Source: Eledone cirrhosa
Lineage: Eukaryota
Assembly (NCBI GenBank): GCA_964016885.1
Contig: OZ024745.1
Location: 29,698,001 to 29,762,000, forward strand
DNA: 64,000 nt
Direction: 5' to 3'
Notes under the pieces: model-generated
Told to the model about the DNA's origin: nothing
The model's database searches: none
The model's input: only the letters and a program-made list of their open reading frames with translations
Part shown: piece after piece, positions 41,922 through 62,770 of the stretch
How the letters are laid out: every line of letters begins with the position of its first letter
Numbering within the stretch: position 1 is the first letter of the stretch
Program-made: the position numbers and the translations under genes

Positions 41922-42047
41922 ATGCCGTATGAAATAATATCATTGTTGTTGACCATTCTGTCCAGTTTGGTGGCGGCAGCTCCTATTAACATGGAAGAAC
42001 CATTTAATCTGACTTTAGTCAATCAAACGGACTTTGATATCAAAGAG
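41922..42047 (+). CDS. Multi-domain lipocalin, exon 1: signal peptide and start of domain 1 (MPYEIISLLLTILSSLVAAAPINMEEPFNLTLVNQTDFDIKE)
   Basis: Hydrophobic signal peptide. QTDFDIKE splices in phase 0 onto FSGIWY to form lipocalin SCR1. Confidence 0.82.
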
Positions 42048-42532
42048 GTAACAATATTTTAATTATTTATGTCTTGAATATCAGGTTATATATAATGCTT
42101 GCTAAAAGTTACATGTATATATATATATATCATCATTTCATTTCATCATTTCATTTTACGTCCACTTTTCCCTGCTTGCAAGGGTGGGACGGGAACTGAT
42201 TCTGGCTTGATTTCTACAGCTGGATACCCTTCCTAACACTAACCTCATTTACAGTGAGTGCTGGGTGCTTTTTTGCCGTGGCACCTCCATAACCACTTTG
42301 CAGTGGAATGATAGGGATCCCAATCCCTATCATCTCACTTCTAAAGCTGAGTAAACTGGAGCAATGTGAAATAAAGTGTCTTGCTCAAGGAAACAACGCA
42401 TCACCCGGTCTGAAGCCATGTGCCTCTATCTATATATATATATATATATATATATATAAAGAAAAAAAGATGAAACCGAAAAATGCAACTGGAGTCTTAT
42501 TGTTTTAAAAAATATATATATTTATTTGGTTC

Positions 42533-42568
42533 CTTTACCGGTTTCGCAGTTCTTCTGCTTTTCAAAAG
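42533..42568 (-). ncRNA. Type I hammerhead, U3-A8 core variant; decayed relatives at about 50722-50760 and 57475-57510
   Basis: CUU-UUGAAAA-GCAG aagaa CUGC-GAAA-CCGG-UA-AAG, followed by AATAAA. Confidence 0.72.
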
Positions 42569-42711
42569 TAGAGTTGAGATGGAGGGTCTGTGGTTTTTCT
42601 AATATATATATATATATATATATATATATATATATATATATATACATACATATATATACATATATATATATATATATATATATATATATATATATACATA
42701 TATATATATAT

Positions 42712-43586
42712 ATCATCATCATCATCATCATCATCATCAACGTTTAACGTCTGTGTTCCACGCTTGCATGGGTTTGGACGGGGATTTTCCCACTTGAGGC
42801 AAGAGTGATTATCTTGCTCGCATAGGACTATCTGGCGGGTTTTCTACAGTTGGATGCCCTTCCTAACACCAACCACATTTACAGTGTGGGGCTGGGAGGT
42901 TTTTACCGTGTTGCCTACACGGCCACATTACAGCGTGAACTGTGTGTTTTTTTGACGTGACACTACACGATCTCATTTGTTTCGGCCTGGATGTTGTGGC
43001 ACCAACATAACTTTACATTGAAAGGGGCGGTGTGGATGGGGTGGGGGTGGTGGGACGGGGGTGTATTTTGTTAGAGATGCCTACTGACTGTAGTAGGTTT
43101 TACTTTGTATTTAGGTAAGGCGGGTCTTCTCTATTACTGAGTACCGCCAAAGGTCTCGGTCCAGTGACATTGTCTTGGTGAGGTGTAAGTGTGTGAGGTC
43201 GGAATTTATCAGCTCGTCCCAGGTTTTTCTGGGTCTGCCTGTTCCGTGGCTACCGTCTATCTTTATTGCCCTGCACTTTGTTATACAGCTATCGTCCTTC
43301 ATGCGCATCACGTGACCATACCAACGTAGCCTTCTCTCGAGTAAACAACATCTGATCCCTCTTATTTCTAATTTTTTCCTTAGTTCGCTTATGCTTTGCC
43401 GTTCACGTATATTACTATTACACATCCAGCGGAGCATGCAAGCTTCGTTCCTCTCTAGTCTGCGTATATCCTCTGCACACAATGCCCAGGTCTCACTACC
43501 ATGCAACATTGCTGTTCGTATGCAGGCATCGTACAACCTGCCTTTCATTTTTAGGGAGAACCCTTTAGCGGCTAATAGTGTTATAG
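42712..43586 (-). mobile_element. RTE LINE, 3' portion (near-identical to 20745-21586)
   Basis: [16 protein letters not shown]...IEKTRLT*, then 3' UTR and (GAT)n. Confidence 0.92.
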
Positions 43587-44145
43587 ATATATATACATAT
43601 ATATATATATATATATATATATATATATATATATATATATATATATATATATATATATACATATATATATATATATATATATACATATATATACATATAT
43701 ATATATACATATATACATATATATATATACATATATACATAGATATATATATATATATATACATATATATACATATATATATATACATATATACATATAT
43801 ATATACATATATACATACATATATATATATATATATATATATATATATATATATATATATATATATGTATGTATGTATATATATATATATGTATGTATAT
43901 ATATATATGTATGTATATATATGTATGTATGTATATATATATGTGTGTATATATATATATGTATGTATATATATATGTATATATGTGTGTATATATATAT
44001 ATGTATATATATATGTATATATGTGTGTATATATATATATGTATATATATATATATATATATATATGTATATATGTATATATATATATATATATATATAT
44101 GTATGTATATATATATGTATGTATATGTATATATATATATATATA

Positions 44146-44722
44146 CAACCTGTATATACAACCTGTCCCATGGTCGGGTCGTTGGCGACTAAACTGGCAA
44201 CCCCACCAAGGTTTCTTGGTGAGGAGGGTGACTTTGGACATCCTGCAGGACTAAAAACAAAACCTGTCAAAGGGCAAAGGAGCTCTTAAGAGTCAATGGC
44301 CATCCAAAATCACCAGGAGAGATGACCCCTTAGCCTTTGTCAAGGCAGAATTCTAGGAGAAGGAAAACTCTGATATAACACCTGCAACCCTGATGGTTTC
44401 CAATGATGTTGACTTGTTCTTCTTTTTGGTAAATATCATCTTGGTTAAGAGAGTGGGACTGGCTTTGTGCAGTGCCTTTGCTCACTATAAAAGCTTCACG
44501 GCACAGGCATTGCTTTATATCTGGAGATCTCTCTGCACTTGTCGTCACATGGTACCATGGGCCCAGCACTATGTGTCAATAATTGTCACAAGTGTAGTGT
44601 TTGTACCAGAGTTTTCAAGTCGCTGGCTGGACTAAAAAGTCACACTTATTCAGCGCATCCGTAGGGGTTCTCCTACATGGATATAAAGTAGTGGCCGTAC
44701 TCGAAAACGAGTTGGCAGCCAC
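44146..44722 (+). mobile_element. Internally deleted RTE-type element (5'UTR-like part and zinc-finger-ending 3' end); related 5' piece at about 40880-40985(-)
   Basis: Ends in [12 protein letters not shown]...*, then TGGCCGTACTCGAAAACGAGTTGGCAGCCACC, as in 48325-48845. Confidence 0.55.
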
Positions 44723-60226: not shown

Positions 60227-60436
60227 ACATCATGAAAACTCTATATTCAGACGAACACTACACATTGAGTTATTTCTGCTTTGGACAGTTTAACCTCTCA
60301 TGTCCCAGGAACTTCACAGAAATTCGTCTGGATAGCAGAAAGAAAGATATTGAACCTTCATTCAAAAGAACAATGTTCCAGCTTCTACAGAAAGTCTGTT
60401 TAACAGCAAATAATATGAAAGATATACAATATGGAG
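60227..60436 (+). CDS. Multi-domain lipocalin, exon 8 (IMKTLYSDEHYTLSYFC...LDSRKKDIEP...VCL...)
   Basis: 210 nt and phase 1/1, exactly as exon 4; aligned SD/TD, C..C and SR...IEP motifs. Confidence 0.83.
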
Positions 60437-60547
60437 GTAGTCTTTTGTTGTTTTATTCTTTTACTGGCTTCAGTTGTTAGACTGTGGCCATTCTGGGGCA
60501 CCACTTGAAGGGAAATGGCTTGATCATAGCAACCACAGTTCTCTTGG

Positions 60548-61240
60548 GTGTTGGTTGGTGGGTGTTAGTGGGTGTTGGTGGGTGTTGGTGGGTGTTGGTG
60601 AGTGTTGGTGGGTGTTGGTGAGTGTTGGTGGGTGTTGGTGGGTGTTGGTGGGTGTTGGTGGGTGTTGGTGAGTGTTGGTGGGTGTTGGTGGGTGTTGGTG
60701 GGTGTTGGTGGGTGTTGGTGAGTGTTGGTGGGTGTTGGTGGGTGGGTGTTGGTGGGTGTTGGTGAGTGTTGGTGGGTGTTGGTGAGTGTTGGTGGGTGTT
60801 GGTGGGTGGGTGGGTGTTGGTGGGTGTTGGTGGGTGTTGGTGAGTGTTGGTGGGTGGGTGTTGGTGGGTGGGTTTTGGTGGGTGTTGGTGGGTGTTGGTG
60901 GGTGTTGGTGGGTGTTGGTGGGTGTTGGTGGGTGGGTGTTGGTGGGTGGGTTTTGGTGGGTGTTGGTGGGTGTCGTTGGGTGTTGGTGGGTGTTGGTGGG
61001 TGTTGGTGGGTGTTGGTGGGTGTTGGTGGGTGTTGGTGGGTGGGTGTTGGTGGGTGGGTGTTGGTGGGTGTTGGTGGGTGTTGGTGGGTGTTGGTGGGTG
61101 TTGGTGGGTGTTAGTGGGCGGATGTTGGTGGGTGGATGTTGGTGGATGTTGGTGGGTGTTGGTGGGTGTTGGTGTCTGGGTGGGTGGGTGTTGCTGGGTG
61201 TTGGTGGGTGTGGGTGGGTGTTAGTGACTGGGTGGGTGGG
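60548..61240. repeat. (GGTGTTGGTG)n 10-bp minisatellite
   Basis: Direct inspection. Confidence 0.95.
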
Positions 61241-61964
61241 GCTAATGATTGGTAGAATCATTAAAGAGTCATATGGGATATATTCTGTGATATATTTTAG
61301 CTCTGTTCTTTTTGAATTGAAATCTTGCTGAGGTCAGCTTTTCCTTTCATTCTTTTGGGAAACAATTATTACTGCTCTGACAAAAGGCTTTGTGGAATTT
61401 TGTAATGACTTTCTGTCTTTTTGAGTTCAAATCCCACTGAGGTCAGCTTTGCCTTTCATCCTTCCGGGGGCAATATAAAATAAAGTACCAGTTAAATACT
61501 GGGGGAGCCAATGTAATTGACTTTTCTCTCTCCACAAATTGTTGACCTAGTGTCAAAATTAGAAATAATCATGTGAGTGTGTGTGTGTATATAAGTATAT
61601 GTGCATGTGTGTATGCTCAGGTGTATATGGACACATGCATGTGTGCACATGTGTATGTGTGTGTGCTCATGTGTGTGCACATGAGTGTAAGTGTGTACAT
61701 GTGTATGTATGCACATGTGTGTGTGTGCCTGTGTGTCTAGGTGCATGTGTATCTGTGTGCATATGTGTGTGTGCTCGTGTGTTTCACTATGTATGTGTGT
61801 GTGTGTGTGCTCGTGTGTTTCACTATGTATGTGTGTGTGTGTGTGTGTTTGTGTGTATGCGTTCACATGTGTGCATGTGTGTGTGTGTACTCGTCTGTTT
61901 CACTATGTATGTGTGTCCTCTGACAATAACTATGTTTTCTCTCCTTTCTCACCATTTTCCCTAG

Positions 61965-62009
61965 CCAACTGCAGTTCAGTTTTAAAAGAAGTTGTTGACA
62001 AAGAACAGA
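61965..62009 (+). CDS. Multi-domain lipocalin, exon 9 (ANCSSVLKEVVDKEQ/K)
   Basis: Strong polypyrimidine tract and tag acceptor; gtaagt donor; phase 1/1; supplies the C-terminal Cys of domain 2. Confidence 0.75.
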
Positions 62010-62690
62010 GTAAGTTGAGATTAACTCTTTTGATACAATATTACTTCCTTGTCAGGAGTATAGGGACTGTGACGTCACAAGACTGTCCCTATAACCCCAC
62101 TTTTCTGATATGAAATACTCTACTTATTTCTTTCAAATAATTGTGTGGTGAATAATCTTCAATGCGAACAAATATTAAGTTAGTGTTTAGTATATCATCA
62201 TCATCAACATCATCATCATCGTCATCATCATCATCACCACCGCCGCCACCACCACCACCATCATCATCATCATCATCATTTAATGTTTGTTTTACATGCT
62301 AGCAAGGGTCAGAAAAGTCTTCATAGGCAAAATCAATACTGAAACGAGACTATAGATATCTATGGCAGGTTATGAGCCTGCATCTCGCTTACATATGGTC
62401 CTGCACTCTACTGAGTGAATTTTATCATAACACCAGCACTATGGAGGTTGTCATGTCTTTGACACAACTGTAGAATCCTCTCAACCCTTTATTTGGCATT
62501 GTTTCTACAACTGGATGCCCTTCATAATACCAACTACTTTACAGAGTGTATAGGGTGCATTTTAGCATAGAACCAGCAATAGAGGATTCAAAACGGAATG
62601 TAAATATATCAATTTCTGTGTTTTGTTTAAATGGTTAAAATGGCTCTTCTCCAATGTATTTATTGTTATTTCAATTATATTTTACTAAAG

Positions 62691-62770
62691 AGCAATTTAT
62701 GAACACTGCTGATGGTATCTGTAGGAAAGAAAATATGCCACTAATGAATTCACACCCTGAAAAGGGCCAG
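62691..62770 (+). CDS. Multi-domain lipocalin, exon 10 (QFMNTADGICRKENMPLMNSHPEKGQ), probable start of a third domain
   Basis: Phase 1/0 like exon 5; CAG|gtaatt donor; no stop codon, so the gene continues beyond the window. Confidence 0.62.

What the first reader, a model, noticed from the sequence alone, without database searches (positions are those of the whole stretch)
41922..62770. Secreted tandem multi-lipocalin gene that the ORF track does not reveal
Ten exons splice in frame into 389 aa. There is a signal peptide and domain 1 with all three lipocalin SCRs (QTDFDIKEFSGIWY, TDY, SRSP). Domain 2 is divergent, having lost the GxW Trp (VLGDSF) and TDY (YSDEHY). A third domain probably begins in exon 10. 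Intron phases repeat 0-2-1-1 in each unit, matching the phase series known for lipocalin genes, and exons 4 and 8 are both 210 nt. About nine N-X-S/T sequons are present. Most lipocalins are single-domain; poly-lipocalins are best known from insects (polycalin). Inference: a lineage-specific multi-ligand carrier, for example for pigment, lipid or chemosensory ligands.
Basis: partly seen in the sequence, partly recalled or inferred. Interest (0 to 1): 0.72.

Follow-up and report, generated by a model that had tools for sequence, protein, structure and literature searches.

The report
Octopus four-barrel secreted lipocalin chain
Eighteen exons, the last eight beyond the window, join in frame into one octopus protein predicted to be secreted, with four lipocalin barrels in a row and an acidic tail that related octopuses lack; it likely ferries small fat-soluble molecules in body fluids and belongs to an older, unstudied mollusc family, so it is not a one-lineage invention.

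Summary
The ten exons join into 389 stop-free codons (intron 3 needs a GC donor). Eight more exons lie beyond the window, giving 864 aa: signal peptide, four lipocalin domains with introns in phases 0-2-1-1, and a 129-aa glutamate-rich tail. There is no TM or GPI signal.

Single-chain orthologs of 727-735 aa are annotated as uncharacterized in Octopus sinensis, O. vulgaris, O. bimaculoides and Argonauta (47-55% identical). AlphaFold models of two orthologs give four barrels; domains 1, 2 and 4 match solved lipocalins (Z 15-18). Published proteome supplements detect the ortholog in skin mucus and in skinless arm tissue of both sexes.

It is not lineage-specific: bivalve and gastropod proteins end in a related three-barrel cassette, and the tree places these apart from insect polycalins. 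Only this species has the long tail and has lost a cysteine pair in domain 3. No ligand is known and no RNA run for this species was listed. Verdict: real, new variant of a known kind, moderate interest.

The parts
41922..42047 (+). Exon 1: ATG, predicted signal peptide (about aa 1-19), start of D1
   Evidence: hydrophobic N-terminus (KD19 2.0); no signal-peptide predictor was run
51152..51279 (+). Exon 2 (phase 0 to 2): D1 GxW motif, strands A-C
   Evidence: 25/42 identical to O. sinensis
52143..52216 (+). Exon 3 (phase 2 to 1), short, GC donor at 52217
   Evidence: best of 117 candidates; DNA contigs agree; only 4-6 of 25 identical to orthologs
53276..53485 (+). Exon 4 (210 nt): D1 TDY, C-x7-C loop, SR motif, helix
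   Evidence: 50/70; Pfam Triabin E 0.0019, below cut-off
54899..54963 (+). Exon 5: D1/D2 linker, start of D2
55515..55633 (+). Exon 6: D2 strand A without the GxW Trp
57854..57963 (+). Exon 7: D2 middle
60227..60436 (+). Exon 8 (210 nt): D2 C-terminal half
   Evidence: 47-50/70 to Octopus
61965..62009 (+). Exon 9 (45 nt, phase 1 to 1): linker
   Evidence: 11/15
62691..62770 (+). Exon 10: start of D3
62771..64000 (+). Start of intron 10; the gene runs on beyond the window. Exons 11-18 on G000:C5 (+): 29762602-29762711 (D3 GxW), 29765722-29765822, 29766771-29766989 (D3 end, lacks the loop Cys pair of orthologs), 29768472-29768563 (linker), 29771330-29771466 (D4 GxW), 29782274-29782362, 29785350-29785559 (D4 TDY half), 29789121-29789590 (26 aa shared with orthologs, then 129-aa Glu-rich tail, stop)
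   Evidence: exon 17 Pfam Lipocalin E 0.00078, below cut-off, ESM Atlas lipocalin clusters 0.92; tail

Best explanation
Eighteen exons join in frame into one 864-residue chain that is predicted to be secreted, unanchored and N-glycosylated, holds four predicted lipocalin barrels and ends in a very acidic tail, and it likely works as a multi-pocket carrier or scavenger of small hydrophobic molecules (lipids, sterols, retinoids, bilins) in tissue fluid, blood and mucus. Shown here: the exon chain, its collinearity with orthologs, the domain matches, and the lack of a second hydrophobic segment. Shown for orthologs only: one transcript, protein detection in mucus and arm tissue, predicted fold. 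Inferred: ligand binding and which barrels bind. D4, the most ApoD-like, is the best candidate; D2 (no GxW Trp) and this species' D3 (lost Cys pair) may have changed specificity or act as spacers. Also inferred: chaining four barrels into about 98 kDa keeps the carrier from being lost by blood ultrafiltration, as binding to transthyretin does for RBP4 (recalled). The tail would be a disordered polyanion that adds solubility or binds cations, and may be cut off at the basic KR site before it.
For: Frame and phases. Orthologs 727-735 aa, 47-55% identical, collinear over all four domains. All 11 matches of the O. sinensis protein in the own genome lie at this locus (stricter first look). A profile from 159 non-octopod domains scores the four domains 68, 64, 45 and 84 bits; the best of 21 shuffled or reversed controls is 3.4. 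Three ortholog proteins pass the Pfam Lipocalin cut-off (26-30 bits vs 23). AF2 models: pLDDT 69 and 73, four strand-rich units each followed by a helix. D4 matches ApoD (Z 18.1, rmsd 2.8, 158 aligned), D2 matches RBP4 (Z 17.1, 3.2, 164) and D1 lipocalin 15 (Z 15.2, 3.1, 141). Best sequence matches in PDB are crustacyanin, ApoD, sandercyanin and RBP (E 0.0016 and weaker). PMC10138644 supplement (O. vulgaris skin mucus): 9 spectra, 5 peptides from D1, D2 and D4, master entry a 737-aa ORF of one transcript; 2 of them span the positions of introns 2 and 7. PMC10337964 supplements (O. berrima arm tips without skin): 3 peptides, 253 and 102 spectra, found in every sample column shown, both sexes. 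No hydrophobic stretch after the signal peptide (KD19 at most 1.2; octopod C-termini hydrophilic).
Against: No ligand, pocket volume or binding test. D3 was barely covered by the listed fold-search rows, so its fold rests on the profile score and secondary structure. Identity to solved carriers is only about 6-21%. Relatives fuse the barrels to Ig, fn3, LDLa or thyroglobulin domains, which also fits matrix or protein-binding roles. Proteome hits do not separate blood from matrix or cells. Splicing in this species, including the GC donor and the tail, is untested by RNA.
Confidence: 0.6

Rival explanations
1. The chain is mainly a matrix or mucus scaffold, or a protein binder (protease or complement inhibitor type, like tick and bug salivary lipocalins). 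The barrels act as rigid glycosylated modules and carry no ligand.
For: 17 sequons. Relatives carry Ig, fn3, LDLa or thyroglobulin domains. The GxW Trp of D2 is lost in 4 of 4 octopods. D1 has short middle strands in both models. Detected in mucus and skinless arm tissue.
Against: No collagen, mucin or chitin-binding module in the Pfam scan of orthologs. Closest folds are ligand carriers. D1, D3 and D4 keep GxW in 4 of 4 octopods.
Confidence: 0.22
2. It is a specialised pigment or chemosensory carrier of skin or suckers.
For: Crustacyanin and sandercyanin, both pigment binders, are among the best PDB matches. Present in skin mucus. Insect polycalin is named a chlorophyllide-binding protein (reference titles in PMC10145054).
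Against: Ortholog found in arm tips with skin removed, in both sexes and all sample columns shown. Only 1 spectrum in 1 of 3 ink samples. Single copy, no expansion seen.
Confidence: 0.12
3. About the tail alone: it is a tolerated read-through into a GA-rich repeat in a slippage-prone genome, with no function.
For: The three aligned orthologs end where the tail begins, and O. vulgaris has the same length. The tail is mostly GAR codons (67 of 129). An earlier scan note reads another acidic expansion in this genome this way (e1-9512053, unchecked).
Against: The purine tract, defined by composition, has 0 stops in the coding frame and 3 and 9 in the others. First codon positions hold 94 G, 24 A, 11 C and 0 T; 39 of 5000 shuffles stay open; the 2 other purine tracts in 264 kb have stops in all frames. 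Internal slippage makes these counts non-independent. Two unnamed relatives also have acidic tails of about 60 aa.
Confidence: 0.35
4. The exons are separate tandem single-domain genes, or a decayed gene.
For: One non-canonical donor; exon 3 poorly conserved.
Against: Only one signal peptide and no stop between domains; single-chain orthologs in four species; one transcript ORF of 737 aa in O. vulgaris.
Confidence: 0.02

Closest known systems
Octopus sinensis LOC115224175 (XP_029650806), O. bimaculoides LOC106871838 (XP_052821518), O. vulgaris CAI9716937, Argonauta hians GAB1598998
   Same: Orthologs: signal peptide and the same four domains in order; 47-55% identity for the three aligned; D2 Trp loss shared; all annotated uncharacterized or hypothetical.
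   Different: They stop at 727-735 aa. This protein adds a 129-aa Glu-rich tail and lacks the D3 loop Cys pair; its D3 is 41-47% identical to theirs, while Argonauta and O. sinensis share 59%.
Uncharacterized molluscan poly-lipocalins (Mytilus XP_052091175, Gigantopelta XP_041367926, Haliotis XP_067662350, Nucella KAL8608206, Batillaria KAK7459419)
   Same: End in a related three-barrel cassette; D2 groups with their third-last domain (99/96; in Nucella the record's second-last), and D2-D4 with their last domains (95/85). No hydrophobic C-terminus.
   Different: 5 to 15 barrels; several gastropod ones carry Ig domains; their D2 counterparts keep GxW; about 20% identity.
[quoted passage not shown]
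   Same: One chain of many lipocalin domains.
   Different: Midgut protein with about 15 domains. Two insect examples end in a hydrophobic GPI-type tail (Pieris 2.46, Schistocerca 2.35 vs below 0 in the four orthologs; the Aricia and Plutella records lack one). Their domains fall in a separate clade (100/96).
Apolipoprotein D, RBP4, crustacyanin, sandercyanin
   Same: Eight-stranded barrel plus C-terminal helix; best fold matches. Chordate ApoD has four coding exons (PMC8530192, passage read), as each unit here does.
   Different: Single-domain proteins of about 20 kDa with known ligands; 10-20% identity; no ligand can be transferred.

Membership tests
Lipocalins (PF00061) | Eight-stranded barrel with C-terminal helix, domains 1, 2, 4 | tested here: met
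   In ortholog models D1 Z 15.2, D2 Z 17.1-17.4, D4 Z 16.6-18.1. This species' own chain was not folded.
Lipocalins (PF00061) | Barrel fold for domain 3 | tested here: inconclusive
   Eight or more strands plus helix by DSSP and 45-60 bits with the leave-out profile, but barely covered by fold-search rows.
Lipocalins (PF00061) | Pfam score over the curated cut-off | tested here: met
   Three whole orthologs score 26-30 bits vs 23. Single exons of this gene stay below cut-off.
Lipocalins (PF00061) | GxW signature near the N-terminus (PMC8214410, passage read), domains 1, 3, 4 | tested here: met
   Present in 4 of 4 octopods.
Lipocalins (PF00061) | GxW signature, domain 2 | tested here: not met
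   Absent in 4 of 4 octopods, present in its 7 bivalve, gastropod and unnamed counterparts. D2 is a lipocalin-fold outlier, not a signature-complete member.
Kernel lipocalins | All three SCRs (GxW, TDY, basic residue before the helix; definition recalled), domains 1 and 4 | tested here: met
   D1 GIW/TDY/SR and D4 GIW/TDY/GR.
Kernel lipocalins | All three SCRs, domains 2 and 3 | tested here: not met
   D2 lacks W and TDY; D3 has YID in place of TDY.
Lipocalins (PF00061) | Binds a small hydrophobic ligand | not testable with these tools
   No binding data found.
Lipocalin genes | Intron phase series 0-2-1-1 | tested here: inconclusive
   The series repeats in all four units. That it is the family's series is recalled; the primary paper was not held.
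Insect polycalins | Multiple lipocalin domains in one chain | tested here: met
   Four domains.
Insect polycalins | Hydrophobic membrane-anchor tail (GPI recalled) | tested here: not met
   Acidic, hydrophilic C-terminus.
Insect polycalins | Domains in the insect polycalin clade | tested here: not met
   Separated by a 100/96 branch in a 54-domain tree and by SH-aLRT 97 in a 133-domain quick tree; no AU test was run.

The most novel reading that the evidence does not exclude
Molluscs have an unrecognised family of soluble poly-lipocalins (4 to 15 barrels, with a conserved last three), multiplied independently of insect polycalins, that serves as a main carrier of lipids, sterols or retinoids in their body fluids. 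This octopod lineage is re-tooling it: barrel 3 has lost a disulfide and a selected 129-residue poly-glutamate tail has been gained from repeat DNA.
Probability: 0.2. Interest if true: 0.7.

Novelty: new variant of a known kind. Interest (0 to 1): 0.42.

Why it matters
Poly-lipocalins appear in the searched literature almost only as insect gut proteins. This gene marks a soluble, unanchored mollusc family that databases call 'uncharacterized', yet it turns up in octopus mucus and arm proteomes. It gives a concrete candidate for how cephalopods move hydrophobic molecules outside cells, and four barrels that can be expressed and assayed one by one. The tail is a testable case of a new coding segment born from repeat DNA. 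The architecture itself is not new, and orthologs are already annotated as gene models.

Tried and rejected
RNA: no RNA holder listed for window 51100-55700 (a long, mostly intronic query); no evidence either way. Word-based homolog searches with exon 4 and exon 17 alone found nothing (7 candidates each); the profile search did. Pfam on single exons: 1 of 9 window exons gave a lipocalin-clan hit and 1 of 9 downstream stretches, both below cut-off. A GT donor for exon 3 breaks the frame; 116 other candidates scored lower. Assembly error as cause of the tail or GC donor: one gap-free contig per run spans each (three runs of one sample, possibly the window's own source, so not independent). Paralogs: none seen; the only PF00061 hit in the genome search is an FABP, and that search missed this gene itself, so other divergent lipocalins may be missed too. 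GPI/TM anchor rejected. Literature: 0 main texts hold six accessions of the orthologs. Searches for lipocalin+octopus+cephalopod (12 papers), polycalin (8), six multi-lipocalin phrases (18), and searches listed no description of a mollusc poly-lipocalin (listings only, except papers named as read); subscription journals are not covered. Two cephalopod preprints mention lipocalin once each without identifying this gene (passages). Posterior salivary gland supplement (PMC7693380): 0 hits for 6 terms, but it may use other ids. The supplement of PMC11431876 could not be read and may bear on mucus abundance; those of PMC10138644 and PMC10142993 were cut when stored, so counts are minima. Three papers were not held. 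PMC4985599 passages gave nothing on a polycalin anchor. Two of six pairwise domain identities failed to align over the domain and were dropped; the other four are 21-30%. No complex prediction was run, as no binding partner is claimed.
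Full report
Observation. The window is AT-rich, microsatellite-rich animal DNA from a 3.0-Gb genome. With the nearest GT the frame breaks. The GC-donor exon was the best of 117 stop-free candidates against two orthologs, and contigs from three DNA runs of one sample match it exactly. Nine sequons and the two 210-nt exons are as described.

The rest of the gene. 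I fetched the next 200 kb and found eight more exons by splice-site scoring and similarity; their genome coordinates are in the last entry of 'parts'. The gene spans 49.7 kb in 18 exons and encodes 864 aa. Each of four units has introns in phases 0-2-1-1, with C-terminal exons of 210, 210, 219 and 210 nt; one extra phase-1 intron splits the D2/D3 linker. A profile built from 159 non-octopod domains scores the four domains at 68, 64, 45 and 84 bits, against at most 3.4 for 21 shuffled or reversed controls. Those 159 domains were first recruited with an octopod-seeded profile, so the test is not fully independent; several of the source proteins pass Pfam lipocalin cut-offs on their own. After the signal peptide there is no hydrophobic segment.

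Orthologs. A profile of the four C-terminal exons found 67 proteins at E 0.001 or better among 1.84 billion. The closest was an Argonauta protein of 727 aa, 47% identical over its whole length. It led to O. sinensis, O. vulgaris and O. bimaculoides proteins of 735 aa. The three that I aligned match exons 1-17 and the first 26 residues of exon 18 in order, at 54%, 55% and 47%. All 11 matches of the O. sinensis protein in the own genome lie at this locus (stricter first look). The host is therefore likely an octopod, about as far from Octopus as Argonauta is; in a tree its D1, D3 and D4 branch outside Octopus plus Argonauta, with strong support only for D3.

Expression, from orthologs only. In the supplement of PMC10138644 (O. 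vulgaris skin mucus; supplement rows and main-text passages read; file cut when stored) the ortholog has 9 spectra of 5 peptides from D1, D2 and D4, assigned to a 737-aa ORF of one transcript. Two peptides span the positions of introns 2 and 7. That mucus also held much haemocyanin, so blood proteins may reach it. In PMC10337964 (O. berrima arm tips; abstract, passages and supplement rows read) it has 3 peptides, 253 and 102 spectra, in every sample column shown; these samples had no skin and the study used both sexes. In ink (PMC10142993, supplement rows) it has 1 spectrum in 1 of 3 samples. None of the main texts searched names the accessions.

Fold. The spliced chain of this species was not folded; two orthologs were. 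Models of the O. sinensis and Argonauta proteins have mean pLDDT 69 and 73 and pTM 0.59 and 0.52, with four strand-rich units each followed by a helix. Foldseek's best match is human ApoD (E 5e-9). VIA-align gives D4 Z 18.1 to ApoD (rmsd 2.8, 158 aligned), D2 Z 17.1 to RBP4 (3.2, 164) and D1 Z 15.2 to lipocalin 15 (3.1, 141). D3 was barely tested by these lists. D1, although it has all three motifs, has short, low-confidence middle strands, in line with its short exon 3.

Family. From 29 of the 99 proteins held plus this model I cut 186 domains. Poly-lipocalins are widespread: 30 domains in the annelid Owenia, 10-15 in three gastropods, 5 in Mytilus, 6 in a sea urchin and in an acorn worm, 4-5 in nematodes, 5-17 in insects. 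In a careful tree of 54 of the 175 domains of 130 aa or more, octopod D2 groups with one late domain of each bivalve and gastropod protein, mostly the third-last (99/96), and D2-D4 group with their last domains (95/85). Insect polycalin domains lie across a 100/96 branch together with deuterostome repeats and two other mollusc proteins; a quick tree of 133 domains agrees on the D2 group and on the insect separation. D3 and D4 are not resolved to single counterparts, D1's place is weak (94/94 with a Mytilus domain, long branch), and the tree is unrooted. So the gene is the octopod member of an older mollusc family, not lineage-specific, and not an insect-type polycalin. Two of four insect examples have a hydrophobic anchor tail; none of the mollusc-type proteins checked does.

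What is special here. First, D2's lost Trp is shared by 4 of 4 octopods, while 64 of 69 mollusc-type domains keep GxW. Second, D3 of this species lacks the loop cysteine pair that the three orthologs and, by a crude pattern, 67 of 69 mollusc-type domains keep; D3 is also its most diverged domain. Third, the last exon runs 129 residues past the orthologs' stop: 67 Glu, net charge -58. One gap-free 622-nt contig per run spans it. The purine tract has no stop in the coding frame and no T at any first codon position, whereas C occurs 11 times; 39 of 5000 shuffles stay open. This suggests selection for an open frame, though slippage copies weaken the count. Two unnamed relatives have acidic tails of about 60 aa, so the tail may be convergent or old.

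How it likely works. Secreted and glycosylated (17 sequons), the chain likely offers up to four pockets for hydrophobic ligands in tissue fluid, blood and mucus; I put this at 0.6. The ligand is unknown. Chaining may protect the carrier from ultrafiltration (inference from RBP4, recalled). A scaffold or protein-binding role is the main rival (0.22); a skin pigment or odour carrier is less likely (0.12) given the skinless-arm data; separate genes are all but excluded (0.02).

Known and new. Polycalin is the published term for multi-lipocalin proteins (PMC10145054, passages). My searches listed no account of a mollusc poly-lipocalin. The scan's own notes hold nothing for this sequence, place or the word lipocalin in this genome; its tandem-lipocalin notes shown (8 of 21) concern other, apparently prokaryotic, genomes. 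Verdict: a real gene, a new variant of a known kind, interest 0.42.

Noticed in passing
window about 19400-26300, + strand: Upstream neighbour is a spliced Rab-like protein 3 gene; the stretch 24603-24776 matches Rab-like protein 3 in PDB (E 2e-8); further exon-like frames near 19480, 23700 and 26220.
   Followed up: partly
window 58045-59853: 48-bp AT-rich minisatellite, 37.7 copies, 97% matches, in intron 7.
   Followed up: no
window 60554-61226 and 51538-51697: 10-bp GT-rich array (68 copies) in intron 8 and an ATG triplet array in intron 2.
   Followed up: no
window 3200-6500 (-), 19790-21196 (+), 37428-39712 (-): LINE-like retroelement remains with endonuclease and reverse-transcriptase-like frames (family names recalled).
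   Followed up: no
window about 50196-50340 and 63060-63203: A 144-bp intronic segment is present twice at about 91% identity; several introns also hold long near-palindromic elements, e.g. near 49800-50080 and 63200-63480.
   Followed up: partly
L007:3570-9260, + strand: Several exon-like frames with good splice sites 26 kb downstream of the stop, no significant Pfam match; probably another gene.
   Followed up: partly
L004:7614-7900: A very high-copy, partly palindromic repeat starts about 25 bases after the stop codon, in the presumed 3' UTR.
   Followed up: no
P0001 (Owenia CAH1786129): A 5687-aa annelid protein with 30 lipocalin-like domains, unnamed; gastropod relatives combine many barrels with Ig domains.
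   Followed up: partly
L022 (G000:C25:4601498-4601680): The only PF00061 hit of the genome search is a fatty-acid-binding protein like ReP1-NCXSQ.
   Followed up: yes
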